From Waddlia chondrophila WSU 86-1044 (GTDB taxonomy: Bacteria > Chlamydiota > Chlamydiia > Chlamydiales > CAMCWV01), in contig CAMCWV010000002.1 in the NCBI GenBank assembly GCA_945882915.1, forward strand, positions 43,821-107,820: a DNA stretch of 64,000 nt, written 5' to 3'. The notes beneath the pieces are model-generated. The model worked only from the letters and a program-made list of their open reading frames with translations. It was not told the DNA's origin and made no database searches. A program made the position numbers and the translations under genes. Position 1 is the first letter of the stretch. Every line of letters starts with the position of its first letter. Positions 7,947-61,315 of this stretch are shown piece after piece.

Positions 7947-8657
7947 TTAAACGCGGTAGGGGGCAGGAAATTCGGGATGCTCAAGCAAAAACTCCTGGAT
8001 CCCCTTATTGCGCAAAAGACAAGCAGGACACTTCAAACACCCCTGAAGAGACACTCCTTCATAACAAGTGATCGTCTCTTCCAGAAGATACCCCAAGACC
8101 CCAAGGCGGTATCCAAGCTCCATTGTCTCTTTCTTTGACATCGTGACTAAGGGAGTACGGATTTCAAATGAAGGGTCATCTAAATCAAGACGCAAAATCT
8201 CCTGCATCTTGTCCATATAACTGCGTGAACAATCACGGTATCCCGAATTTGATCCATCGACTCCTATAACGCCCATGTAAATGCTAGTAGCACCTACATG
8301 GGCAGCGAAAATTGCGCCTAACCGCGCCCACAAACCATTTCTTCCAACAACAAGTGTATTAGGTACTTTGCCTGAAGGATGGATAATCTCAAGGGAAGGA
8401 TTCATCAACGCATTATCGGTAATCGACTGCAAACAGTCAGCGTTAACAACAACGTGAGCCACTCCCCAATTTTTACAGATTTTTTCTGCTTGATGGAGCT
8501 CAGGAGCGTGTCTTTGCCCATAGGTAAACGAGAGGCCAATAACCTCGCTTTTAGAAAACTCTTCTATAGCCAATGCTAAACAAAGAGACGAGTCCATCCC
8601 ACCAGAGTGGATGACAATCGTTTTTGGCTTAACTGTGAGTTGGTTTTTAAACTTCAT
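7947..8657 (-). CDS. queC: 7-cyano-7-deazaguanine synthase
   Basis: 236 aa. PP-loop HSGGMDSS and a C-terminal Cys cluster CYEGVSLQGCLKCPAC. Confidence 0.9.
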   Translation of the reverse strand: MKFKNQLTVKPKTIVIHSGGMDSSLCLALAIEEFSKSEVIGLSFTYGQRHAPELHQAEKICKNWGVAHVVVNADCLQSITDNALMNPSLEIIHPSGKVPNTLVVGRNGLWARLGAIFAAHVGATSIYMGVIGVDGSNSGYRDCSRSYMDKMQEILRLDLDDPSFEIRTPLVTMSKKETMELGYRLGVLGYLLEETITCYEGVSLQGCLKCPACLLRNKGIQEFLLEHPEFPAPYRV

Positions 8658-11981: not shown

Positions 11982-12058
11982 ATATATACTCCTCGTAGTT
12001 GAAAACGGGAATTTGGACTAGCGCGAAAGCTCCCGTTTTCAGCTAAGAGGAGTATATA
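11982..12058. repeat. R1 short form
   Basis: atatatactcctcgtagttgaaaacgggaatttggactagcgcgaaagctcccgttttcagctaagaggagtatata. Confidence 0.85.
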
Positions 12059-12075
12059 AATGTTTATTCCGCCAC

Positions 12076-13128
12076 TTATTCCACCCTCTCGTTGCCAGGA
12101 ATGGTGGTGTCATGGAAATCTTTGACTAGCTCAATTGTCGTCGGCCTACTGATAATAATGCTAAAAAGCTCTTCACTATCTTCTGTCACAAGCCGAATGC
12201 ATCCATCACTTTCATACTTACCAACACTTGCCCTGTTCTCTTCAAGAGGGCCCTCAGCTCCAGAAGGAGGAACCCAAGGAGCTCCATGAATGCCAAACCC
12301 TCTAGCCCCAGCTGTCACATCACCAATCTCTTGATCAAATGGAATCCAGCGAGTTCCGAATACGCGGATCATCTCAACTTTCTGATTCTGATAGATGCCT
12401 AAGGCTCCTGGTTTGAAAACGGCAACCCTAGTCCCCAAGGTATACTTACCAAGTGGTGACAGCCCTCCTGAAGGGCGCTTGTCATCAAGGCGACCAAGCC
12501 CCACAGAATAGCGCTTAAGAAGCACTTTTTCGTTAGCTGCGGGGTCTATGTAATAGAACCACATGAGGCAGCGAGAGGTGTCGACGACAAGGTAAAATTG
12601 CAAGTCTTTATCAAGTTTCAATACATTGAAACGATCGCCTTGCTTTACCTCTTGAGTGAGGTAGTCGGCCTTATTGTTTAAACTGCGAGCGATAAAGTGG
12701 CGTGAGGTTTTGTAGTGACGAGCATAATCAGAAAGCCATGCAGCACGTCCTTTTTGCCAATCGACCTGACTTTTATAAGAAATTGTTTCAACAATTGGAA
12801 GCTTTTGACTTCCCGTTGTGAATAGTTCTTGAATGCGATCTGCATCGGGCAAATCCTCAGCGCTTAAAACTTGCTTTACCTGCTCTTGAGTCATCGCCGC
12901 GGCTTCTTTTGATCCATCAGCTTTTGATGCTTTCGCGATCTCTTGCTTGGTCTTTGCTGACCCCTGCTCTAATTGAATCACCTGAGGGCTTTTCGTTTTG
13001 GCAGGTCCACCTGCTTTTGAAGAAGCAACCTGAGCTTCAGCTGGCTTTCCACCTTTTACCCAAGCAGCAACCCCAATGGCTCCAAACAGGACAAGAGTAA
13101 CAATGATTAATAACTTAGGCAGCGACAT
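12076..13128 (-). CDS. L,D-transpeptidase (YkuD) domain protein with N-terminal membrane anchor
   Basis: 350 aa. N-terminal TM segment, then a C-terminal catalytic signature GIHGAPW ... SDGCIRL. Confidence 0.7.
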   Translation of the reverse strand: MSLPKLLIIVTLVLFGAIGVAAWVKGGKPAEAQVASSKAGGPAKTKSPQVIQLEQGSAKTKQEIAKASKADGSKEAAAMTQEQVKQVLSAEDLPDADRIQELFTTGSQKLPIVETISYKSQVDWQKGRAAWLSDYARHYKTSRHFIARSLNNKADYLTQEVKQGDRFNVLKLDKDLQFYLVVDTSRCLMWFYYIDPAANEKVLLKRYSVGLGRLDDKRPSGGLSPLGKYTLGTRVAVFKPGALGIYQNQKVEMIRVFGTRWIPFDQEIGDVTAGARGFGIHGAPWVPPSGAEGPLEENRASVGKYESDGCIRLVTEDSEELFSIIISRPTTIELVKDFHDTTIPGNERVE

Positions 13129-13180: not shown

Positions 13181-13281
13181 ATATATACTCCTCGTAGTTG
13201 AAAACGGGAATTTGGGCTAGCGCGAAAGCTCCCGGGGCTTTGGCGCCGTCCAAGTTCCCATTTTCAACTACGAGGAGTATA
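13181..13281. repeat. R1 long form (about 100-bp near-perfect palindrome)
   Basis: atatatactcctcgtagttgaaaacgggaatttgggctagcgcgaaagctcccggggctttggcgccgtccaagttcccattttcaactacgaggagtata. Preceded by the R5 fragment ttatagtcga. Confidence 0.9.
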
Positions 13282-13289
13282 GTTGGCAA

Positions 13290-14861
13290 CTACCCCAACG
13301 ATCCAATGGTCCAGCGATGATCCTCTAACGTGCCGCTCTCAAAAAAATAGGCAACTAGAAAATCTGCACCCCAATAGTCATCCCCGCCTGCAAGGGGAAT
13401 AACTTCCATTCTACTCCCCTCTTCAGTCCCTTCTTTCTCCCCTACAGCTTCTAAATAGAGATGCGTTTTTTCTCCCTTAAAATCAACACGGCAAGAAGCG
13501 CTTTGATAACGATCGAGGGACTGAGGAAGCAGCCTATATAGGCCATCAACAACGCAGAGTGGAGATTTAACATAAAAAACAAAAGCAAGGTTCTTTAAAT
13601 CTGCAGTTAGACTCAAGAAAGAGGCCGTAATTTCAAGTAACTTTCCCTCATACCGCTGTCTTGATTCTATCCAGGAGAGGTTAACAGCTGGATTGTGAAA
13701 GGTAATAGCAGAACAAGCTACTTCTGGAGGCATTACAAGCCGCGACTTCCCCTGCAAAGAAAACCCAGACTCCTGGCATGTGGATACAATATCAGATTCT
13801 ATAGACCGCCCTAACACAAAGCCCCGTTCAATCCCAAAGCCTCGACAGTCACCCAAAGGGAGGACTTGGGGGCCATAGCTTACAACGCCGACATCGATAC
13901 CTTGAAACGCTCCCATACCGGTATTACCACCAAAAAGTGTCGCGACAACACTGGTTTGAGAATCGCGATGGCCTACCAGTGCTGTGTGGGGATCGTAGAT
14001 TACATTGCCAAAAGAGGCAGAACCAAGAAGCGCAAAAGCTGCTGGAGTTGCTTGAACAGCGTGAATTCCCAGTTGCTCCATCCAAAACGCGCACAAAGTA
14101 AGCCAAGCAGGAATATAAATAGGAGCGTTTTCTTGAAATAGTTGCTTAAGCTGCTCTGCCTGCGCAGATGCAAAAGGAGAAGAAACAGCCATAAACAAGA
14201 GACAGTTTACAGTTAACTGCCTAGCAAGCGTGCTCGACTTCTCTTGGGCAAACAGTCCAAGCAAAGGCCTCGACCAGCCATCTAAAGTGTTTACTTGCCA
14301 CTCTGCAACACGCTGAGCGGCCAGCAAACACTCTTGGTTATCAGAGATTTTTCCAAGAAGAGCCCAGATAAGACCAAGCTCTGCATGAACGGAAGGATGC
14401 GGAAAATTTGACCAACTCCAGTCACCGTTAACTTCAACAGGAGCTGCCCCGCTGGGAAGTAACTCAGGGCGAGGCATTACAACGCTTAAGCCTAGCACAA
14501 AAGCTATAAGGGCAATCATTGCCCCGCTAAGCTGGAATCCTGGAAAATAAGAGCGCTGCCTGATCTCTTGAAACTGTGCAGCAACAGCTGCCTGGTATTT
14601 TTGAAAATCAGGAAAAAGTTTTGTCAGCAAACTTAATGCTAACAAGTGGCGCAGCTGATCTAAGTAGTGTGCTGGATAACAAGCAGGGGTTGTTTCTGAA
14701 ACATGTTCAGGTGAATCTTCAAAGCGGAAAAGAGCCTCGAGAACATGTTCTTCCAAGGACTTCCCTAAAAGGGCTTGAGCTGCAACTCTATCTACTAAAA
14801 GTGCGCCTCCCTCCTGAGCAAGTAACTGTGCTTCAAGACACTGCAACATCCCAGAATACAT
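13290..14861 (-). CDS. hypothetical protein (523 aa)
   Basis: Long ORF with no competing frame. I recognise no diagnostic motif. The helical repeat character in the N-terminal half is only an impression. Confidence 0.5.
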   Translation of the reverse strand: MYSGMLQCLEAQLLAQEGGALLVDRVAAQALLGKSLEEHVLEALFRFEDSPEHVSETTPACYPAHYLDQLRHLLALSLLTKLFPDFQKYQAAVAAQFQEIRQRSYFPGFQLSGAMIALIAFVLGLSVVMPRPELLPSGAAPVEVNGDWSWSNFPHPSVHAELGLIWALLGKISDNQECLLAAQRVAEWQVNTLDGWSRPLLGLFAQEKSSTLARQLTVNCLLFMAVSSPFASAQAEQLKQLFQENAPIYIPAWLTLCAFWMEQLGIHAVQATPAAFALLGSASFGNVIYDPHTALVGHRDSQTSVVATLFGGNTGMGAFQGIDVGVVSYGPQVLPLGDCRGFGIERGFVLGRSIESDIVSTCQESGFSLQGKSRLVMPPEVACSAITFHNPAVNLSWIESRQRYEGKLLEITASFLSLTADLKNLAFVFYVKSPLCVVDGLYRLLPQSLDRYQSASCRVDFKGEKTHLYLEAVGEKEGTEEGSRMEVIPLAGGDDYWGADFLVAYFFESGTLEDHRWTIGSLG

Positions 14862-14905
14862 CAGAAACCATCCACTCTATTAAGAGAGCTTTTTCTGTTG
14901 AACCT

Positions 14906-15225
14906 CCCCATAGCTAAAGCCAGGAGATTCCAGGTGCAGAGCTTATTGACCATTTAGGCTTATAAGTTGCAGAGGGATTATATCCCATCGAGGTTCGTTC
15001 CGAACCCACCTAGGCGATGAAAACAAGCACAAATATCACCTGGGCTTACTATACGTCGGATTGGAGCCAAACCTGGCATTCGCCAGGTTGCCTTGTGGGG
15101 CATTTACCTTGGCGCATTACCGACTGTAACTTGTTAGGTGTAAGATAGCATCATCGATCTTTTACCAGAATACTAAGATTTAATTTAATCACACGCATTG
15201 ACCCCATAGCTAAAGCTAGGGGATT
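14906..15225. repeat. 296-bp insertion-like segment bounded by 24-nt direct repeats
   Basis: ccccatagctaaagccaggagatt (14906-14929) and ccccatagctaaagctaggggatt (15202-15225). An uninterrupted version of the unit occurs at 39147-39191. Confidence 0.7.
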
Positions 15226-15581
15226 GCGTCGTGTCTTTGTTCAATAAGCTGCTTCATTTTTTTCCCAGGAGTAAACTTCACAGCATTCCGAGCAGGGATC
15301 TGAACAGGGGTTGTAGGAGCTTTTGGGTTACGGCCAACTTTTGCTTTTCTTACGACAATTTCAAATACGCCGAAATCACGAAACTCTAAACGACCCCCAT
15401 CAGACAAGCAGTCTGTTATTTTATCAAGAAAGGTCTGAATAACAATTCGCACTTGATTAGGGTGAAGATTTTGATCTTTCAACTCAGATAATATTTCGCC
15501 GACCAATTGTTTTTTAGTCACTGTGGTAGCTTTTGGGGCTATTTTCATCTCCATTACAGTTTGCTCCCTCGTTGTTAACAT
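15216..15581 (-). CDS. HU/IHF-family DNA-binding protein
   Basis: The core FGVFEIVVRKAKVGRNPKAPTTPVQIPARNAVKFTPGKKMK is the beta-arm region of the HU/IHF family. The true start may be the internal MEMKIAPK. The stop codon lies inside the 24-nt repeat hairpin. Confidence 0.8.
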   Translation of the reverse strand: MLTTREQTVMEMKIAPKATTVTKKQLVGEILSELKDQNLHPNQVRIVIQTFLDKITDCLSDGGRLEFRDFGVFEIVVRKAKVGRNPKAPTTPVQIPARNAVKFTPGKKMKQLIEQRHDAIP

Positions 15582-15689: not shown

Positions 15690-15950
15690 AAGGGTGTCGC
15701 CGCTTAATTACCGCTGCCGCGGTTTAAAAAACAACCACCAACTCCGCGCCCCCTTCTCTTTTCTCTTGTTTTTCTCTCACGTTCTCTCACGTTCTCTCAG
15801 GCCTCTGTGTTTCAAAAAACAGATATTAAGATTTTTGAAACACAGAGGCGTGAGAGAACGTGAGAGAAAGAAAAAGGCCTAAAAATGTGGGTAATGACAA
15901 GGGCTTTGGCGCCGTCCAAATTCCCGTTTTCAACTACGAGGAGTATATAT
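15690..15950. repeat. composite: truncated R7 end + spacer + R3 hairpin + R6 terminus + R1 right arm (inverted copy of part of 3515-3700)
   Basis: R3 hairpin at 15773-15869. R6 terminus aggcctaaaaatgtgggtaatgacaagg at 15878-15900. Then gctttggcgccgtccaaattcccgttttcaactacgaggagtatatat at 15901-15950. Confidence 0.8.
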
Positions 15951-15970: not shown

Positions 15971-16627
15971 CTACTTATTTAGAAGCCAATCAGAAAATGT
16001 CTGAAAGCTAGGGAATGTATAGTCAGGGACCTGCTCTTTCAAAGAGCCCAAACCAACGCTTAAAAACACGCACGCCGCCCCTACAGCCTTTGCTACGGCA
16101 ATATCTGTATGGTGATCGCCAACCACCAACACCTGCTCTGAAGAGCATCCAAAGAGCTTCATAATATGATAAAGAGCGGCTGGGTCGGGCTTTTTAACTT
16201 TTAGAGTATCCGCAGCCACGACTACGCCCATTTTATCCGCCAGACCAAAATGGTCAAGAATTTTTTTAGTTGGCACCATAAGCTTGTTAGTAAGAATCGC
16301 ATAGTGACAAAGCGAAGGCCTAGAGAAAAACTCCTTCACGCCTTCATATAACGTCACACGGCGCAAGGAGTTAGCGATGTACCAGTCTACATACAACTGG
16401 CTCAGAGCAGCGTGCCGCGCAGAAGGCGTTTGGTGAAAAACACACCCGTCAAGCAGCTGCCCTACTCCCTCTCCGATATGAGAGATCACTTCACCTGTGG
16501 GTAAAGGAGATAATCCTTCATGGGCGCGGACAAAGTTAATTGCATCCGCCAAGTCCTCGCTACAATCAACGAGCGTTCCATCTAGATCAAATACAATAAG
16601 CTTGAGTGAATTATTCAATCCTAACAA
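15971..16627 (-). CDS. HAD-superfamily phosphatase (phosphoglycolate phosphatase-like)
   Basis: 218 aa. Motif I FDLDGTLVD, motif III K..PDP, motif IV VGDHHTD. Confidence 0.7.
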   Translation of the reverse strand: MLGLNNSLKLIVFDLDGTLVDCSEDLADAINFVRAHEGLSPLPTGEVISHIGEGVGQLLDGCVFHQTPSARHAALSQLYVDWYIANSLRRVTLYEGVKEFFSRPSLCHYAILTNKLMVPTKKILDHFGLADKMGVVVAADTLKVKKPDPAALYHIMKLFGCSSEQVLVVGDHHTDIAVAKAVGAACVFLSVGLGSLKEQVPDYTFPSFQTFSDWLLNK

Positions 16628-29978: not shown

Positions 29979-30036
29979 ACCTAAATCGTTTACCGCCCCC
30001 TCAACTCTCCGCTGCTCGCATATAGCATTTTTTTTA

Positions 30037-30430
30037 AAAACCGCGTAAGCGGCAATTAAGCGGCGAAGCCGTGGCAGACGCTAGCCGTAGGTGACCAAAG
30101 GGAGCCTACGGAATTTTTAACCGGCGATTCGGAGCCACGGCAGTGGCGATACGCTAAACTACCTGTCGCCGCTGTCCGCGGCTTATGGTTTTTATATACT
30201 CCTCGTAGTTGAAAACGGGAATTTGGACTAGCGCCAAAGCCCCGTTTTCAACTACGAGGAGTATATGTCTGCATTTCCGTAGGCTCCTTTCAGTCACCTA
30301 CGGCTAACATCTGCCACGGCCTTGCCGCTTAACTACCGCTTGCGCGGTTTTCTAAAAAACAACCACCAACTCCGATCTCCCTTCTCTTCTCTCTTGTATT
30401 TCCTCTCACGCCTCTGTGTTTCAAAAAATG
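30037..30430. repeat. R7 element carrying a nested R1 short form, followed by spacer and half R3
   Basis: R7 at 30037-30352 is an inverted copy of 3683-3930, with R1 (30194-30266) inserted. 30353-30430 holds the spacer aaaaaacaaccaccaactccg... and the left arm only of R3 (ctctcacgcctctgtgtttcaaaaaa). Confidence 0.85.
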
Positions 30431-30545
30431 TTAATCTTTATTCCTTGCCCCCCCCTAGCACCCCTCATTTTGACTATGAGGTGTTGCCTTTTAGAGGGTC
30501 ATCCATGTAATATAGTACCCTTTATCGAGTTTTCTATAGGTAGTC

Positions 30546-34630: not shown

Positions 34631-34779
34631 ATATCCTCCTCTTAGCTGAAAACGGGAAAAATTATCCTAAACAAGCGCTTGCCCTTTCTAGAAGGTAACC
34701 CTTTAATCGCTACGGGCTTCTTCTCTTTTATTCTTTTGTGCGCTGCCCAAGTTCCCATTTTCAGCTACGAGGAGTATAT
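34631..34779. repeat. R1 copy whose interior is replaced by an R2-flank segment with the R2 hairpin deleted
   Basis: The left arm atatcctcctcttagctgaaaacggga runs into aaaattatcctaaacaagcgcttgccctttctagaaggtaac|cctttaatcgctacgggcttcttctc. The right arm is gttcccattttcagctacgaggagtata. Compare 63655-63957, where the full R2 is present. Confidence 0.75.
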
Positions 34780-34942
34780 ACTCCTCGTAGTTGAAAACGG
34801 GAATTTGGACTAGCGCGAAAGCTCCCGCGGCTGAACGATCGTAAGTGCCTTAGTATTAGAAATACAAAGGGTACTTGCGATCGTTCAGCCCCGGGGCTTT
34901 GGCGCCGTCCAAGTTTCCATTTTCAGCTACGAGGAGTATATA
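34776..34942. repeat. R1 longest form with R8 hairpin (34829-34890) in its centre, abutting the previous R1
   Basis: tatatactcctcgtagttgaaaacgggaatttggactagcgcgaaagctcccgc[ggctgaacgatcgtaagtgcc..gggtacttgcgatcgttcagcc]ccggggctttggcgccgtccaagtttccattttcagctacgaggagtata. Confidence 0.9.
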
Positions 34943-39146: not shown

Positions 39147-39246
39147 TTTGAACCTCCCCATAGCTAAAGCTGGGGGATTGCGTCGTGTCTTTATTCAGTG
39201 CTCTGCAAACCCCGCGCTAAAGGACGGGGTTTGCAGAGCACTGGAT
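39147..39246. repeat. uninterrupted copy of the 45-nt unit split at 14906-15225, followed by a perfect palindrome related to the hairpin next to the IS200 tnpA
   Basis: 39147-39191 ttgaacctccccatagctaaagctgggggattgcgtcgtgtcttt. 39196-39245 cagtgctctgcaaaccccg cgctaaagga cggggtttgcagagcactg. The reverse complement aligns with 60841-60885 ccagtgcgcggcaaaccccatcctttagggcggggtcaagagcgc. Confidence 0.75.
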
Positions 39247-39300
39247 CAACGACTAGAACGTGTTTGCTCATATCTCTTAGCGCTGTTATGCTTTCCTAAA

Positions 39301-39466
39301 CTATACTCCGCTTAGCTGAAAACGGGAATTTGGACTAACGCGAAAGCTCCCGCGGCTGAACGATCGCAAGTGCCTTAGTATTAGAAATACAAAGGGCACT
39401 TGCGATCGTTCAGCCCCGGGGCTTTGGCGCCGTCCAAGTTCCCATTTTCAGCTAAGCGGAGTATAT
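39301..39466. repeat. R1 longest form with R8 (39354-39415)
   Basis: ctatactccgcttagctgaaaacgggaatttggactaacgcgaaagctcccgc[R8]ccggggctttggcgccgtccaagttcccattttcagctaagcggagtata. Confidence 0.9.
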
Positions 39467-49311: not shown

Positions 49312-49412
49312 GAGCCGGGGACCTCGTGGAATGAAACGGCCCGAACCAGGTCAGGATCGGAAGGTAGCAGCCTTAAGGGTTTAGTTTTGTGCCTTGAGAT
49401 AATCTCCGGCTC
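49312..49412 (+). ncRNA. ffs: signal recognition particle RNA (4.5S, small bacterial type)
   Basis: Domain IV motif ccaggtcaggatcGGAAggtagcagcc (compare E. coli CAGGUCAGGUCCGGAAGGAAGCAGCC). The terminal helix pairs gagccgggga with tctccggctc. Followed by a T7 run at 49413-49419. Confidence 0.8.
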
Positions 49413-49421
49413 TTTTTTTCT

Positions 49422-52765: not shown

Positions 52766-52775
52766 GAATTAACCT

Positions 52776-52940
52776 GTACTCCTCTTAGTTGAAAATGGGG
52801 ATTTGGGCTAGCGCGAAAGCTCCCGCGGCTGAACGATCGTAAGTGCCTTAGTATCAGAAATACAAAGGGCGCTTGCGATCGTTCAGCCCCAGGGCTTTGG
52901 CGCCGTCCAAGTTCCCATTTTCAGCTAAGAGGAGTATATA
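52776..52940. repeat. R1 longest form with R8 (52827-52888)
   Basis: gtactcctcttagttgaaaatggggatttgggctagcgcgaaagctcccgc[R8]ccagggctttggcgccgtccaagttcccattttcagctaagaggagtatata. Confidence 0.9.
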
Positions 52941-53298: not shown

Positions 53299-54099
53299 TT
53301 ACATCATATTTGCAAACTCAGAAACAAACCACTGAAGGCGACCACGCATACGGTGGAGTGCCTTGCTGTGGATCTGAGAAACGCGGGACTCGCTAATCCC
53401 CATTAATTGACCTATCTCCTTAAGCATCAAGTTCTCGTAGTAATAAAGAACCAGAACTGTTCGTTCCTGCTCGGGCAGTTCCGTAACTGCTTTTTCCAAA
53501 AGTTGGTTAAACTCATTGCGGTCTGCCATGTCGTAACTGGTCAGCGCTTTGTCATCAGCTATGCGATCTGCCATCGAGACACTCTCTGGATCGTCAGTAA
53601 CCGTTGCATCCAAAGGAATCATCGTAGCAGGACGAACCCGGTGGTAGAGATCTTCGAGCTCTTCAGCCGAAATCCCCAAACGCTTTGAAAGCTCTCCGTC
53701 GGTCGGCTCCCTGCCCAGCTCATGCTGCAGTGCAAGCTGTGCCTTCCCTATTTGGTTAGCCTTCTGATGGACGCTGCGCGGAACCCAGTCCAAAGAGCGC
53801 ATCTCATCAATAATCGCCCCTTTAATCAATAAAATCGCGTAGGTTTCGAACTTATTCTTCATTGTAGGGTCATACTTCTCGATGGCCTTGATCAATCCCA
53901 AAACACCCGTGGAGTACATATCGTCTATCTTAACATGAGAAGGAAGACCAACAGCAAGACGACCAGCAACGTACTTTACGAGATGCAAGTACCTTGTAAT
54001 CAACTCATCGCGCAATCCTAGCACCTGAGTTTTTTTATATTCTTGCCAAAGCTCATTAGGGTGTCCGAGCTTCTTATTTTTGTCGTTTGTCTGTTTCAT
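53299..54099 (-). CDS. fliA: RNA polymerase sigma-28 factor (FliA/WhiG family)
   Basis: 266 aa. Region 2 YLHLVKYVAGRL / GVLGLIKAIEKYDP, the FliA hallmark LDWVPRS, and the region 4.2 HTH LKEIGQLMGISESRVSQIHSKAL. Confidence 0.9.
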   Translation of the reverse strand: MKQTNDKNKKLGHPNELWQEYKKTQVLGLRDELITRYLHLVKYVAGRLAVGLPSHVKIDDMYSTGVLGLIKAIEKYDPTMKNKFETYAILLIKGAIIDEMRSLDWVPRSVHQKANQIGKAQLALQHELGREPTDGELSKRLGISAEELEDLYHRVRPATMIPLDATVTDDPESVSMADRIADDKALTSYDMADRNEFNQLLEKAVTELPEQERTVLVLYYYENLMLKEIGQLMGISESRVSQIHSKALHRMRGRLQWFVSEFANMM

Positions 54100-54263
54100 A
54101 TACTCCTCTTAGCTGAAAACGGGAATTTGGACTAGTGCGAAAGCTCCCGCGGCTGAACGATCGTAAGTGCCTTATTATTAGAAATACAAAGGGCACTTGC
54201 GATCGTTCAGCCGCGCGGCTTTGGCGCCGTCCAAATTCCCGTTTTCAACTACGAGGAGTATAT
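54098..54263. repeat. R1 longest form with R8 (54151-54212), abutting the fliA start codon
   Basis: On the minus strand the element ends ...gctaagaggagtatATG, where ATG is the fliA start. Confidence 0.9.
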
Positions 54264-60003: not shown

Positions 60004-60103
60004 TATATACTCCTCGTAGTTGAAAACGGGAATTTGGACTAGCGCGAAAGCTCCCGGGGCTTTGGCGCCGTCCAAGTTCCCATTTTCAGCTAAGAGGCGT
60101 ATA
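60004..60103. repeat. R1 long form
   Basis: tatatactcctcgtagttgaaaacgggaatttggactagcgcgaaagctcccggggctttggcgccgtccaagttcccattttcagctaagaggcgtata. Confidence 0.9.
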
Positions 60104-60206
60104 GTTAAAAAACAGGGTGAGTTGCAAGAATTTTCTGTACACTTCCACAGCAAAAAGAAAGTATTAAAGATTTTCACCACAGAGACGTGGGAGAACACAG
60201 AGAGAA

Positions 60207-60610
60207 ATATACTCCGCTTAACTGAAAACGGGAATTTGGGCTAGCGCGAAAGCTCCCGCGGCTGAACGATCGCAAGTGCCTTATTATTAGAAATACAAAG
60301 GGCACTTGCGATCGTTCCGCCCCGGGGCTTTGGCCTTGTCATTACCCACATCTTAAAACAACCAATTTGCCCTAAACAAGCGGTTGTCCTCTCCAGAAGG
60401 TAACGTGGACCGCCTAAGGTCTGGGATCTAACCTGTTACCAAACGAACGTTTGTTGTAGACTCAATCTGGAATCCCAGACCTTAGGCGGCCCACGTTACC
60501 TTGCTGCATAAGGCAGTCATGTTTTTGAGCAAATCGGCTATCCCAAAATGTGGGTAATGACAAGGGCTTTCGCGCAGTCCAAATTCCCGTTTTTAGCTAA
60601 GCGGAGTATA
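60207..60610. repeat. composite: R1 with R8 (60260-60321) and an R6 element (60334-60565, itself containing R2 at 60389-60503) inserted in its right half
   Basis: ...cccggggctttgg|ccttgtcattacccacat ... atgtgggtaatgacaagg|gctttcgcgcagtccaaattcccgtttttagctaagcggagtata. Confidence 0.85.
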
Positions 60611-60655: not shown

Positions 60656-60899
60656 TAAACGAAACTGCTTTACGCTGTACTAGCCGCAGGTTGGGGTGTA
60701 AACTTTGTGCTGTTTTTTATCCTAACAGCCGAAGGCTGATCCTGCCTATCTTGTTCTTGCATTTCTCTCACTCCTCTTGCTTCTCTGCTTGCTCATTTTA
60801 TAAAGAAAATGGTACCATTTAACACTTATAACTTGCTGATCCAGTGCGCGGCAAACCCCATCCTTTAGGGCGGGGTCAAGAGCGCATTACGCGGCTAGA

Positions 60900-61315
60900 C
60901 TAGTGAGGGGTTTGTTGCTGTTCAATGTACTGACGAATAAGTGCAATTGGGGCTCCACCGCAACTACCAGCAAAATAACTGGGTGACCACAAAGCATTGC
61001 CCACAACTTATTGCGAATACTAAGGTATTTCTTTTTTCGAATTAAGTGACTTGACACACCCTTTAAACTGTTTACTAATTTAGAAACAGCTGCTTTAGGA
61101 GGGTAATTCACTAGCAAATGGACGTGGTCGTCTTCTCCATCGAATTCTATAAGTTGAGCTCCAAAGTCTGAGCAAACACTAGAAAAGATTGGATGCATTG
61201 TGTCTAGAATTTCTCTTGTAAAAACTTCTCGGCGGTATTTTGTAACAAAGACCATGTGAACATGCATTAGAAAAACACAATGTCTACCATGCCTAATATC
61301 GTTGTTTTTTTTCAT
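60900..61315 (-). mobile_element. tnpA: IS200/IS605-family Y1 transposase gene tnpA, disrupted by a 1-nt frameshift
   Basis: HGRHCVFLMHVHMVFVTKYRREVF and DDHVHLLV (HUH) motifs. After ...RNKLW the annotated frame reads AMLCGHPVILL, but the +2 frame reads GNALWSPSYFAGSCGGAPIALIRQYIEQQQTPH* (the canonical C-terminus with the catalytic Tyr region), ending at 60900. The frameshift is near 60999-61003. A hairpin lies at 60841-60885. Confidence 0.8.

What the first reader, a model, noticed from the sequence alone, without database searches (positions are those of the whole stretch)
14906..15225. 296-bp structured segment inserted at the IHF-like gene terminator, flanked by 24-nt direct repeats, with an empty-site-like copy elsewhere
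The hairpin-containing string CCCCATAGCTAAAGC(C/T)(A/G)GG(A/G)GATT occurs at 14906-14929 and 15202-15225, 296 bp apart. At 39147-39191 a single copy is flanked on the left by the left flank of the first repeat (ttgaacct) and on the right by the right flank of the second (gcgtcgtgtcttt). That right flank at locus 1 encodes the last residues of the IHF-like protein. Locus 2 therefore looks like the uninterrupted unit, and locus 1 looks like the same unit split by an insertion with duplication of the hairpin.

The inserted 270 bp has no ORF but is rich in nested helices, for example gtcgg..gccaa[acctggc attc gccaggt]..ttggc..ccgac at 15055-15124 and ggttcg-ttc-cgaacc at 14992-15006. It lies in the 5' leader of the 523-aa gene. 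Candidates are a small non-coding RNA gene, a cis-regulatory leader, or a non-autonomous element using a hairpin-specific (IS200/IS605-like or integron-like) mechanism.
Basis: seen in the sequence. Interest (0 to 1): 0.6.

Follow-up and report, generated by a model that had tools for sequence, protein, structure and literature searches.

The report
Gene-less IS605 transposon with guide-RNA relic
The 296-bp "structured insert" is an ordinary, gene-less remnant of an IS200/IS605-type jumping gene: its two 24-nt "direct repeats" are the element's own left-end and right-end hairpins, and its folded interior descends from the guide RNA (omega RNA) region of a lost TnpB gene.

Summary
The motif occurs at 14906, 15202 and 39156, with 0 expected by chance. 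The reading "unit split by an insertion with hairpin duplication" is wrong.

On the minus strand the motif is AATCCCCTAGCTTTAGCTATGGGG. It is the subterminal hairpin found at both ends of a widespread IS200/IS605 group. In public contigs it sits upstream of tnpA/tnpB as TGAA|..-hairpin-TCAA. It sits just after tnpB as hairpin-AGGTTCAA| or ..GTCAA|.

The window carries a 342-bp ORF-less element (14898-15239, minus strand) with a left end (copy B) and a right end (copy A). It lies after TTGAA in the last conserved codons (Ile-Glu) of the IHF/HU gene. Removing it gives ...IEQKKLS* about 18 nt before the next gene; distant relatives have 0-58 nt there.

Covariance models built only from TnpB-linked right ends hit 14898-15013 (52 bits) and 14898-15076 (60 bits, E about 1e-16). 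The interior is therefore an omega-RNA-type scaffold with an internal deletion.

Copy C (39148-39193) is a one-hairpin derivative, left-end half plus right-end half.

No tnpB lies in the window. The only tnpA (60887-61315) is frameshifted.

[quoted passage not shown] It is a new member of a known kind.

The parts
14898..15239 (-). Whole ORF-less IS200/IS605-type element (PATE), 342 bp, boundaries +/-1 nt. The top strand is the window minus strand.
   Evidence: LE and RE assigned by comparison with full-length elements. Excising it restores ATT GAA CAG AAA AAG CTC TCT TAA and an 18-nt spacer to the next ATG. Relatives have a 0-58 nt spacer.
15240..15244 (-). Transposon-adjacent target motif, TTGAA on the top strand. 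It lies within the Ile-Glu codons of the IHF/HU gene.
   Evidence: [T/C/G]TGAA[C/T] precedes every LE-type copy: L028, L030, L031, L033, L036, L039, and window copies B and C. It also precedes the one-hairpin copy in L022. E114 is the last invariant IHF residue.
15190..15239 (-). Left end. Layout: C-AAAGACACGACGC-AAT-[hairpin B, 15202-15225]-TCAA-TGCGTGTG. The outer stem pairs 15223-15235 with 15190-15197.
   Evidence: About 96% identical over 47-48 nt to the LE-type copy in L033. The same layout lies directly upstream of tnpB in L039 and L028, and of tnpA+tnpB in L030. The fold shows the extended hairpin.
15216..15581 (-). IHF/HU-like gene. Its last 7 codons (QRHDAIP) and its stop codon are supplied by the element's left end.
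   Evidence: ORF. Pfam families HU-HIG and Bac_DNA_binding are recorded for the same gene in L001. In the alignment of 27 homologues, tails after ...IE are unrelated.
14898..15076 (-). Omega-RNA-type scaffold, the relic of the tnpB 3' region plus the right end. Parts: GUAAG motif, long helix P2 (GCCCAGGUGAU/AUCGCCUAGGU), stem X, a variable stem, the terminal hairpin, and TTCAA.
   Evidence: CM R2 was built from five TnpB-linked sequences without the window. It hits at 60.2 bits, E = 9e-17, over the full model length. CM R1 gives 52.1 bits, E = 1.9e-11, for 14898-15013.
14992..15007 (-). Stem X, GGGUUCG-GAA-CGAACC on the top strand. The middle pair is U-A where relatives have G-C or C-G.
   Evidence: Alignment with L041, L059, L050, L039 and L042. 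Pair counts show covariation at 3 of 6 pairs. The stem is perfect in the CM alignment.
14898..14929 (-). Right-end terminus: hairpin A (14906-14929, AATCTCCTGGCTTTAGCTATGGGG), then AGG, then the transposon-end motif TTCAA (14898-14902).
   Evidence: GCTTTAGCTATGGGGAGGTTCA occurs in 22 metagenome contigs, several just after TnpB-like ORFs. L039's RE ends ...GGGGAGGTTCAA.
15077..15189 (-). Remaining interior. It comprises an AT-rich stretch and the 5' part of the multibranch fold. No homologue was found and its origin is unresolved.
   Evidence: No match in the window, the fetched loci, plasmids or phages. A 20-mer from the adjacent part of the core (15073-15092) found nothing related in the genome or viral collections. 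No protein relic was detected.
39148..39193 (-). One-hairpin derivative of the same element lineage. Layout: TGAA|T-AAAGACACGACGC-AAT-hairpin C-AGGTTCAA|. The target TGAA is at 39194-39197.
   Evidence: The left half is identical to B's LE and the right half to A's RE. CM R1 gives 35.9 bits from the hairpin and end motif only. L022 has a one-hairpin copy with the same layout.
60887..61315 (-). Frameshifted IS200/IS605 Y1 transposase gene (tnpA). It is the only candidate trans-mobiliser in the window. Whether it is cognate to this element is untested.
   Evidence: tblastn with L030 TnpA gives E = 5e-13, with a second alignment piece in another frame. After adding one G, Pfam Y1_Tnp scores 3e-42 and NCBIfam transpos_IS200 scores 146 bits. 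The same 142-aa frameshifted product is on 4 contigs.

Best explanation
The segment between the two repeats, together with both repeats, is one non-autonomous IS200/IS605-family element. [quoted passage not shown]

Copy B is the left-end hairpin and copy A is the right-end hairpin. In this family the two ends carry near-identical hairpins in direct orientation.

Inferred mechanism, by analogy with IS608. A Y1 transposase (TnpA) binds the two hairpins on single-stranded top-strand DNA. It cuts 3' of the target motif TTGAA at the left end and 3' of TTCAA at the right end. It then moves the strand as a circle and pastes it 3' of another TGAA, without target duplication.

Here the element landed just after the last conserved codons (ATT GAA) of the IHF/HU gene. 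The left end now supplies a new 7-residue tail and the stop codon. It also pushes the next gene about 340 bp away.

The right-hand 179 nt of the element descend from the tnpB 3' end and its overlapping guide-RNA (omega RNA) scaffold. The coding capacity is gone, but the main helices remain.

Whether the element arrived short or shrank in place is not resolved.

Copy C at 39148-39193 is a second insertion of the same lineage. It collapsed to one hairpin, most simply by recombination or slippage between its two direct hairpins.

The element is probably now immobile and without a dedicated function. No tnpB lies in the window, and the only tnpA is frameshifted.

Shown: the identity of the ends, the omega-RNA homology, the absence of the segment in distant relatives, and the tidy reconstructed empty site. 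Inferred: the transposition chemistry, the direction of the C deletion, and the present inactivity.
For: (1) The 24-nt motif occurs in 24 viral contigs, far above chance.

(2) On the motif's AATCCCC..GGGG strand, ORFs ending at or in the hairpin carry Pfam OrfB_IS605 and Cas12f1-like_TNB. Four were scanned (L018, L019, L029, L034); L037 and L040 hold close copies. L039's ORF is NCBIfam guided_TnpB.

(3) LE-type copies (TGAAC-RAAA-N8-GC-AAT-hairpin-TCAA-N8') lie directly upstream of tnpB in L039 and L028. One lies upstream of tnpA(Y1)+tnpB in L030. The same elements end in RE-type hairpins followed by AGGTTCAA or AGTAGTCAA.

(4) Window copy B has the LE layout, and copy A has the RE layout (GGGG-AGGTTCAA).

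(5) A second ORF-less LE+RE pair, about 145 bp, exists in L036.

(6) CMs built without the window hit 14898-15013 (52.1 bits) and 14898-15076 (60.2 bits, E = 9e-17). Copy C scores 29-36 bits and copy B 18-23 bits, from the hairpin alone. An independent right end in L022 scores 80 bits.

(7) In distant relatives (the flanking protein is 28-36% identical) the IHF gene abuts the homologue of the 523-aa gene, with a 0-58 nt gap.

(8) IHF conservation ends at ...IE. Excision restores ...IEQKKLS* and an 18-nt spacer. There is no flank duplication.

(9) The + strand has negative GC skew throughout. Both insertions therefore have their top strand on the G-rich strand, which is the lagging-strand template. 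That fits the known bias of this family (my knowledge: Ton-Hoang et al. 2010).

(10) PATEs, and PATE-borne omega RNAs, are described in the literature (PMC10055086). The IS608 end geometry is comparable (PMC3201880).
Against: No empty-site allele was found. The nearest other IHF in the protein database is only 63-73% identical.

Only two copies of the lineage were seen in 64 kb, so copy number and mobility in this genome are unknown.

About 110 nt of the interior (15077-15189) has no detectable homologue.

No protein-level tnpB relic is detectable. The omega-RNA assignment therefore rests on the CM hits and on a helix (P2) whose sequence differs entirely from the relatives.

The window's tnpA is only about 30% identical to the tnpA linked to this hairpin in L030, and it carries a different hairpin next to it. 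A cognate transposase has not been identified.
Confidence: 0.88

Rival explanations
1. A 45-50 bp hairpin unit (as at locus 2) pre-existed downstream of the IHF gene, and a 270-bp segment inserted into it, duplicating the 24-nt hairpin as a target-site duplication.
For: C carries A's left flank and B's right flank. The two hairpins are direct repeats 296 bp apart.
Against: Direct LE and RE hairpins are the native architecture of full-length relatives (L039, L030) and of another PATE (L036).

B is followed by TCAA directly, while A and C are followed by AGGTTCAA. B is therefore not a copy of the C-type unit.

The inserted piece would have to start with TCAA and end inside a hairpin. That matches no boundary of this family.

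The 'host' flank gcgtcgtgtcttt is element sequence found in unrelated contigs.
Confidence: 0.03
2. The omega-RNA-like RNA is still functional. It would be an orphan guide RNA used in trans by a TnpB or TldR-like protein encoded elsewhere in the genome, or an exapted structured RNA acting on the IHF / 523-aa gene transcript.
For: The scaffold helices are intact although coding is lost. P2 keeps 10 of 11 pairs with a wholly different sequence, and stem X is perfect with a compensatory U-A pair.

The two substitutions in hairpin A both give G-U wobble pairs on the top strand.

The sequence is identical apart from one SNP across six contigs. PATE-borne omega RNAs used in trans are proposed in PMC10055086.
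Against: There is no tnpB in the window. The two inner hairpins of P2 are deleted and the stem Y region is doubled in length. There are no expression data. The six identical contigs are one species, so they say nothing about constraint. Transitions give wobble pairs by default.
Confidence: 0.1
3. An independent small-RNA gene or riboswitch-like 5' leader of the 523-aa gene that merely sits between two terminator-like hairpins.
For: Strong predicted structure. Position upstream of the 523-aa gene on the same strand.
Against: No Rfam family matches, even at E up to 10. Relatives have the same gene pair with no spacer. The hairpins and 179 nt of the interior are homologous to transposon ends and omega RNA. 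No sigma-70-type promoter or terminator pattern fits.
Confidence: 0.03
4. An IStron-like element: a self-splicing group I intron fused to IS605 ends, which would splice out of the IHF mRNA and restore ...IEQKKLS*.
For: The element lies in a coding region in the sense orientation. IStrons and an IStron-ended PATE are known (bioRxiv 10.1101/2023.11.20.567912).
Against: No group I intron match in Rfam at E up to 10. The target motif ends in A, not the U used at group I 5' splice sites, and the element ends in ..CAA, not G (my knowledge of group I introns). The element's own in-frame stop already gives a viable IHF tail.
Confidence: 0.02

Closest known systems
Palindrome-associated transposable elements (PATEs) of the IS200/IS605 family. 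Described in Haloquadratum walsbyi (PMC3119063), Geobacillus stearothermophilus (PMC10055086) and C. difficile IStron-ended PATEs (bioRxiv 10.1101/2023.11.20.567912).
   Same: It has no ORF. It keeps family-typical LE and RE hairpins in direct orientation. It lies 3' of a short target motif with no target duplication. It carries an omega-RNA-like region next to the RE.
   Different: The host is an uncultured Chlamydiae lineage. Only two copies were seen. The insertion is fused in frame to the 3' end of an essential-type nucleoid gene. The omega-RNA scaffold has an internal deletion. No active partner transposase was seen.
IS608 of Helicobacter pylori, the mechanistic prototype (PMC3201880)
   Same: Both have subterminal imperfect palindromes at both ends on the top strand. 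The left cleavage/target motif lies upstream of the LE hairpin: 16 nt here, 19 nt in IS608. The right cleavage motif ends in TCAA a few nt after the RE hairpin: 7 nt here, up to about 10 nt in related copies, and 10 nt in IS608.
   Different: The target is TTGAA rather than TTAC. The hairpin sequence is different. IS608 carries tnpA and tnpB, and this element carries neither.
TnpB omega RNA (reRNA) of IS605/IS1341 elements. Here that means the clade represented by L039, L041, L059, L022 and L042.
   Same: The GUAAG motif, long helix P2, stem X (GGGNNNG-GAA-CNNNCCC), the terminal hairpin and the ..GGTTCAA end are all shared. CM scores are 52-60 bits.
   Different: It does not overlap any tnpB ORF. 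The two hairpins enclosed by P2 are missing. The stem Y region is about twice as long. Training sequences score 77-93 bits on R1 against 52 here.
REP elements with RAYT transposases, and classical MITEs
   Same: These are also small, ORF-less, hairpin-bearing intergenic repeats mobilised in trans. REP/RAYT likewise derives from Y1 (HUH) transposition.
   Different: The window's Y1 protein is an IS200-type transposase (146 bits), not a RAYT (23 bits against a cutoff of 80). The element has no terminal inverted repeats and no target-site duplication, unlike MITEs.

Membership tests
IS200/IS605-family element (PATE subtype) | Near-identical subterminal hairpins at both ends, in direct orientation on one strand, rather than terminal inverted repeats | tested here: met
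   B (15202-15225) and A (14906-14929) share 21 of 24 nt on the same strand. The same arrangement holds in full-length L039 and L030.
IS200/IS605-family element (PATE subtype) | The ends are homologous to ends that flank tnpA(Y1) and/or tnpB in autonomous or tnpB-only relatives | tested here: met
   LE type lies upstream of tnpB (L039, L028) and of tnpA+tnpB (L030). RE type lies after tnpB (L018, L019, L029, L034, L037, L040, L041, L059).
IS200/IS605-family element (PATE subtype) | Insertion 3' of a short specific target motif, without target-site duplication; the right end finishes with a conserved cleavage motif | tested here: met
   TTGAA| precedes the LE at B, and TGAA| at C, as in all LE-type public copies. 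TTCAA| ends the RE. The flanks are not duplicated.
IS200/IS605-family element (PATE subtype) | No protein-coding gene inside the element | tested here: met
   The longest internal ORFs are 41-43 aa. There is no TnpB or TnpA similarity by tblastn or HMM.
IS200/IS605-family element (PATE subtype) | Insertion polymorphism, or multiple copies, showing mobility in this genome | tested here: inconclusive
   A second copy of the lineage exists (C), but as a one-hairpin form. No empty-site allele was found: all contigs of the species carry the element, and there is no close relative. The source genome is not in genome contigs, and its copies did not appear in the metagenome scan.
IS200/IS605-family element (PATE subtype) | A cognate Y1 transposase available in trans | tested here: inconclusive
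   One IS200-type tnpA lies at 60887-61315. It is frameshifted in every assembly seen, and it is associated with a different hairpin. The rest of the genome could not be searched.
TnpB omega RNA (reRNA) | Structured scaffold ending in the RE terminal hairpin, immediately followed by flank-derived guide sequence | tested here: met
   CM R1 scores 52.1 bits and CM R2 scores 60.2 bits, both over the full model length and ending at the element boundary 14898.
TnpB omega RNA (reRNA) | Complete scaffold as in TnpB-linked relatives | tested here: not met
   52 model positions (the two hairpins inside P2) are replaced by 16 nt. The stem Y region is 48 nt instead of 24.
TnpB omega RNA (reRNA) | Overlap with, or adjacency to, a tnpB gene; expression; binding by TnpB | not testable with these tools
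   No tnpB lies in the window. No transcript or binding data are available.
IStron (group I intron fused to IS605/IS607 ends) | A group I intron core spanning the element | tested here: not met
   No Intron_gpI or other ribozyme match at E up to 10 in 14700-15400.
Known Rfam RNA families | Match to any curated covariance model | tested here: not met
   At gathering scores the window matches only tRNA-Asn and SRP RNA. Permissive matches in the region are chance-level, at E 6.5 and 8.8. TnpB-linked loci also have no Rfam hit at their right ends.

The most novel reading that the evidence does not exclude
The element is an orphan, PATE-borne omega RNA kept under selection after loss of tnpB. Its helices are preserved by compensatory change. 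It would be transcribed with, or downstream of, the IHF gene and end in a guide matching its own insertion site. It would then be used in trans by a TnpB or TldR-type protein encoded elsewhere in this Chlamydiae genome, or act as a structured RNA between the two genes.
Probability: 0.08. Interest if true: 0.55.

Novelty: new member of a known kind. Interest (0 to 1): 0.3.

Why it matters
It explains a puzzling "structured insert with 24-nt direct repeats" as ordinary transposon anatomy. Such repeats at gene ends should be checked against IS200/IS605 end hairpins before new RNA genes or new insertion mechanisms are proposed.

It adds three minor points:
- This hairpin group is spread across many phage-like contigs and reaches an environmental Chlamydiae lineage.
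- A PATE can rewrite the C-terminus of a conserved nucleoid protein without destroying it.
- An omega-RNA-type fold can outlast its nuclease gene.

None of these changes current understanding.

Tried and rejected
- Rfam at gathering and permissive thresholds found nothing at the locus and nothing at the TnpB-linked right ends.
- tRNA/tmRNA scan: only tRNA-Asn elsewhere in the window.
- Promoter and terminator patterns gave nothing convincing.
- Searches for the core elsewhere all failed. I tried the window and fetched loci by blastn and nhmmer, plasmids and phages by distant blastn, two core patterns in viral contigs, and one 20-mer in genome contigs. That 20-mer gave six unrelated hairpin matches, and the source species was absent.
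- An early idea that B and C mark the att sites of a 24-kb island, or that C is a cDNA-like copy of the IHF mRNA 3' end, was dropped once the flank proved to be transposon LE sequence.
- An early idea that the IHF tail QRHDAIP is ancestral was rejected by the 27-sequence alignment.
- A protein-level tnpB relic in the core was not significant by tblastn or by a C-terminal HMM on three frames. Only a faint C.V....DV..A pattern appears.
- RAYT/REP identity of the window's Y1 gene was rejected by NCBIfam.
- A column-wise covariation count for the LE outer stem was not attempted, because the stem register differs between copies. It is described qualitatively only.

Full report
**1. Observation**

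The string CCCCATAGCTAAAGCYRGGRGATT occurs three times, all on the + strand: A at 14906-14929, B at 15202-15225 and C at 39156-39179. None is expected in shuffles.

C shares A's left flank (ttgaacct) and B's right flank (gcgtcgtgtcttt[a/g]ttca).

B overlaps the stop codon of an IHF/HU-like ORF at 15216-15581(-). A 523-aa ORF at 13290-14861(-) follows on the same strand.

The 270-bp interior has no ORF longer than 43 aa. It folds better than shuffles on both strands (z about -3.1 to -3.2).

The source is an uncultured Chlamydiae lineage. The only hit that carries an organism name, at 28% identity, is labelled Chlamydiae bacterium, and the IHF homologues are named Chlamydiales/Parachlamydiales. 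Identical proteins occur on contigs of GCA_947446165.1 and several ENA assemblies. The spacer is identical apart from one SNP in five other contigs.

**2. What the 24-nt motif is**

Rfam finds nothing at the locus. A scan of viral contigs for the motif unexpectedly gave 24 hits.

Read on the window's minus strand, the motif is AATCCCCTAGCTTTAGCTATGGGG. Its flanks fall into two layouts.

- **Right-end layout.** An ORF runs up to or into the hairpin, which is followed by 3-6 nt and then (G/T)TCAA. Six such ORFs are TnpB-like. The four that were scanned carry Pfam OrfB_IS605 and Cas12f1-like_TNB.
- **Left-end layout.** The order is [T/C/G]TGAA[C/T], RAAA, about 8 variable nt, GC-AAT, the hairpin, then TCAA. 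In most copies a stretch complementary to the variable nt follows. This layout lies directly upstream of tnpB in L039 and L028, and upstream of a Y1 tnpA plus tnpB in L030.

The same full-length elements end in a right-end hairpin. L039 ends ...AATCCCCTGCCTTCAGGCATGGGG-AGGTTCAA. L030 ends ...GGGG-AGTAGTCAA.

So the motif is the subterminal hairpin that an IS200/IS605 group carries at both ends in direct orientation. This is the arrangement described for IS608, where the left cleavage/target site lies 19 nt 5' of the left hairpin and TCAA lies 10 nt 3' of the right hairpin (PMC3201880).

A metagenome scan for GCTTTAGCTATGGGGAGGTTCA found 22 more right ends, several just after TnpB-like ORFs.

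**3. The window element**

On the minus strand the locus reads as follows:

...CTT ATT GAA | C AAAGACACGACGC AAT [hairpin B] TCAA TGCGTGTG ... interior ... CACCTGG AAT [hairpin A] AGG TTCAA | CAGAAAAAGCTCTCTTAATAG...ATG (523-aa gene).

B has the left-end layout. It is about 96% identical over 47-48 nt to the left-end copy in L033. A has the right-end layout of L039.

The element is therefore 14898-15239 (342 bp, +/-1 nt), and it has no ORF. That makes it a PATE, a class already described (PMC3119063, PMC10055086). Another small ORF-less pair of left and right ends (about 145 bp) is present in L036.

**4. Evidence that it is an insertion**

In three distant relatives the IHF gene abuts the homologue of the 523-aa gene, with a gap of 0, 0 or 58 nt. 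The flanking protein in those relatives is only 28-36% identical.

In an alignment of 27 IHF homologues, conservation stops exactly at ...IE (E114 is invariant), and the tails after it are unrelated. The codons ATT GAA contain the target motif TTGAA.

The last seven residues (QRHDAIP) and the stop codon are therefore transposon left-end sequence. The 'host flank' that B shares with C is element sequence.

Removing 14898-15239 gives ...KKMKQLIEQKKLS*, followed by 18 nt and then the ATG of the next gene. There is no flank duplication.

No true empty-site allele could be found. All contigs of the species carry the element, and the next-closest IHF is 63-73% identical.

GC skew is negative on the + strand across the window. 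Both insertions therefore have their top strand on the G-rich strand, which is the lagging-strand template. This agrees with what is known for this family (my knowledge).

**5. The interior**

The interior has no DNA homologue by sequence search in the fetched loci, plasmids or phages. Two short core patterns scanned against the viral collection, and one against the genome collection, found nothing related. It has no significant protein relic of TnpB.

An alignment of right-end-proximal regions showed a shared stem-loop. Relatives have GGGGTCGGAAYGNCCC-TCGA, and the window has GGGTTCGGAACGAACC-TCGA.

- **Model R1.** It was built from six TnpB-linked right ends, without the window. Of its cells, 96.7% are paired, and five pairs show changes on both sides. 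It hits 14898-15013(-) at 52.1 bits, E = 1.9e-11. C scores 35.9 bits and B 23.0 bits, from the hairpin alone. An independent right end in L022 scores 80 bits.
- **Model R2.** This 199-position model comes from five 190-nt TnpB 3'/omega-RNA regions (RNAalifold: 62 pairs, 18 with compensatory changes). It hits 14898-15076(-) at 60.2 bits, E = 9e-17.

The window keeps the GUAAG motif, the long helix P2 (10 of 11 pairs, with an unrelated sequence), a perfect stem X, the terminal hairpin and the GAA/UUC outer pairs. It lacks the two hairpins enclosed by P2, and its stem Y region is doubled in length.

The right-hand 179 nt are thus an omega-RNA-type scaffold, the relic of a tnpB 3' end. The remaining roughly 110 nt (15077-15189) are unexplained.

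The literature notes that PATEs often encode omega RNAs that would need a TnpB in trans (PMC10055086).

**6. Copy C**

On the minus strand C reads ...CACTGAA | T AAAGACACGACGC AAT [hairpin] AGGTTCAA | AGTTGC...

Its left half matches B's left end and its right half matches A's right end. Its hairpin is closer to B, with 1 difference against 3 to A.

The simplest history is a second insertion of the same lineage after a TGAA, followed by deletion between the two direct hairpins. It is not an empty site.

A one-hairpin copy with the same layout is in L022.

**7. Mobility now**

No tnpB lies in the window.

A Y1 transposase gene is present at 60887-61315(-). It is a full-length IS200-type TnpA only after one G is added (Pfam 3e-42; NCBIfam 146 bits; not a RAYT). 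As sequenced, the frame breaks before the C-terminal SYFAGSCGGAP...YIEQQ segment. The same 142-aa product is on four contigs.

The gene is followed by a different hairpin (60851-60877), which has a homologue at 39208-39234, right beside C. Whether this TnpA ever served the PATE is unknown.

The element is most likely an inert relic.

**8. Verdict**

- This is a new member of a known kind, of modest interest.

Noticed in passing
window 60887-61315 (-), hairpin 60851-60877; homologous hairpin 39208-39234 (+): An IS200/IS605 Y1 transposase gene carries a 1-nt frameshift before its C-terminal catalytic region. The same frameshifted product is on 4 contigs. There is no room for a left end, because the neighbouring gene starts only 36 nt upstream. 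The hairpin downstream of it (GACCCCGCCCTAAAGGATGGGGTTTGC) has one other copy in the window, directly beside mini-element C.
   Followed up: partly
window, e.g. 11983-12085, 13182-13284, 34772-34941, 39297-39466, 52770-52939, 54094-54263, 60004-60372: A very dense family of long palindromic intergenic repeats, with units of about 70-170 nt such as TATATACTCCTCGTAGTTGAAAACGGGAATTTGGAC...GTCCAAGTTCCCATTTTCAGCTAAGAGGAGTATA. There are 12-16 copies in 64 kb. They look like MITE/REP-type elements and are unrelated in sequence to the IS605 hairpin.
   Followed up: no
window 3515-3682 vs 15725-15902; also 22712-22826 and 30380-30444: A second repeat family (TTCTCTCACGTTCTCTCACGCCTCTGTGTTTCAAAAA...) is present as 99%-complementary inverted copies 12 kb apart. 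One copy lies just upstream of the IHF gene.
   Followed up: no
window 3633-3941 vs 30029-30402: Long inverted repeats (141-166 nt, 87-93% complementary) lie 26 kb apart. Each is itself internally palindromic.
   Followed up: no
window 23084-23158: A short tandem array of a 15-nt unit (AAACGCCTCACGGAA), about 4-5 copies.
   Followed up: no
window 15971-16627 (-): In this genome a HAD-family hydrolase gene and repeat elements sit between tyrS and the IHF gene. In relatives L006 and L007, tyrS is followed directly by the IHF gene.
   Followed up: no
L059, minus strand, about 8031-8184: Two right-end modules lie in tandem 61 nt apart after one tnpB (...GGGGAGGTTCAG then ...GTCGTGGGGAGGTTCAA). This may be a nested or abortive insertion into the guide region.
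   Followed up: no
L021 (whole 4272-nt viral contig): The right-end hairpin, with an identical 21-nt outward flank, occurs at both contig ends in inverted orientation. This could be an assembly artefact or a real inverted-terminal structure.
   Followed up: no
L022 5242-5307 (+) next to tnpA 5210-4788 (-) and tnpB 4782-3751 (-): A one-hairpin unit with a left-end left half and a right-end right half, like window copy C. It lies 66 nt upstream of, and in opposite orientation to, a complete tnpA-tnpB element whose own right end scores 80 bits.
   Followed up: partly
window 28330-28403 and 49314-49413: tRNA-Asn(GTT) and bacterial small SRP RNA. These are the only Rfam matches at gathering scores in the window.
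   Followed up: no
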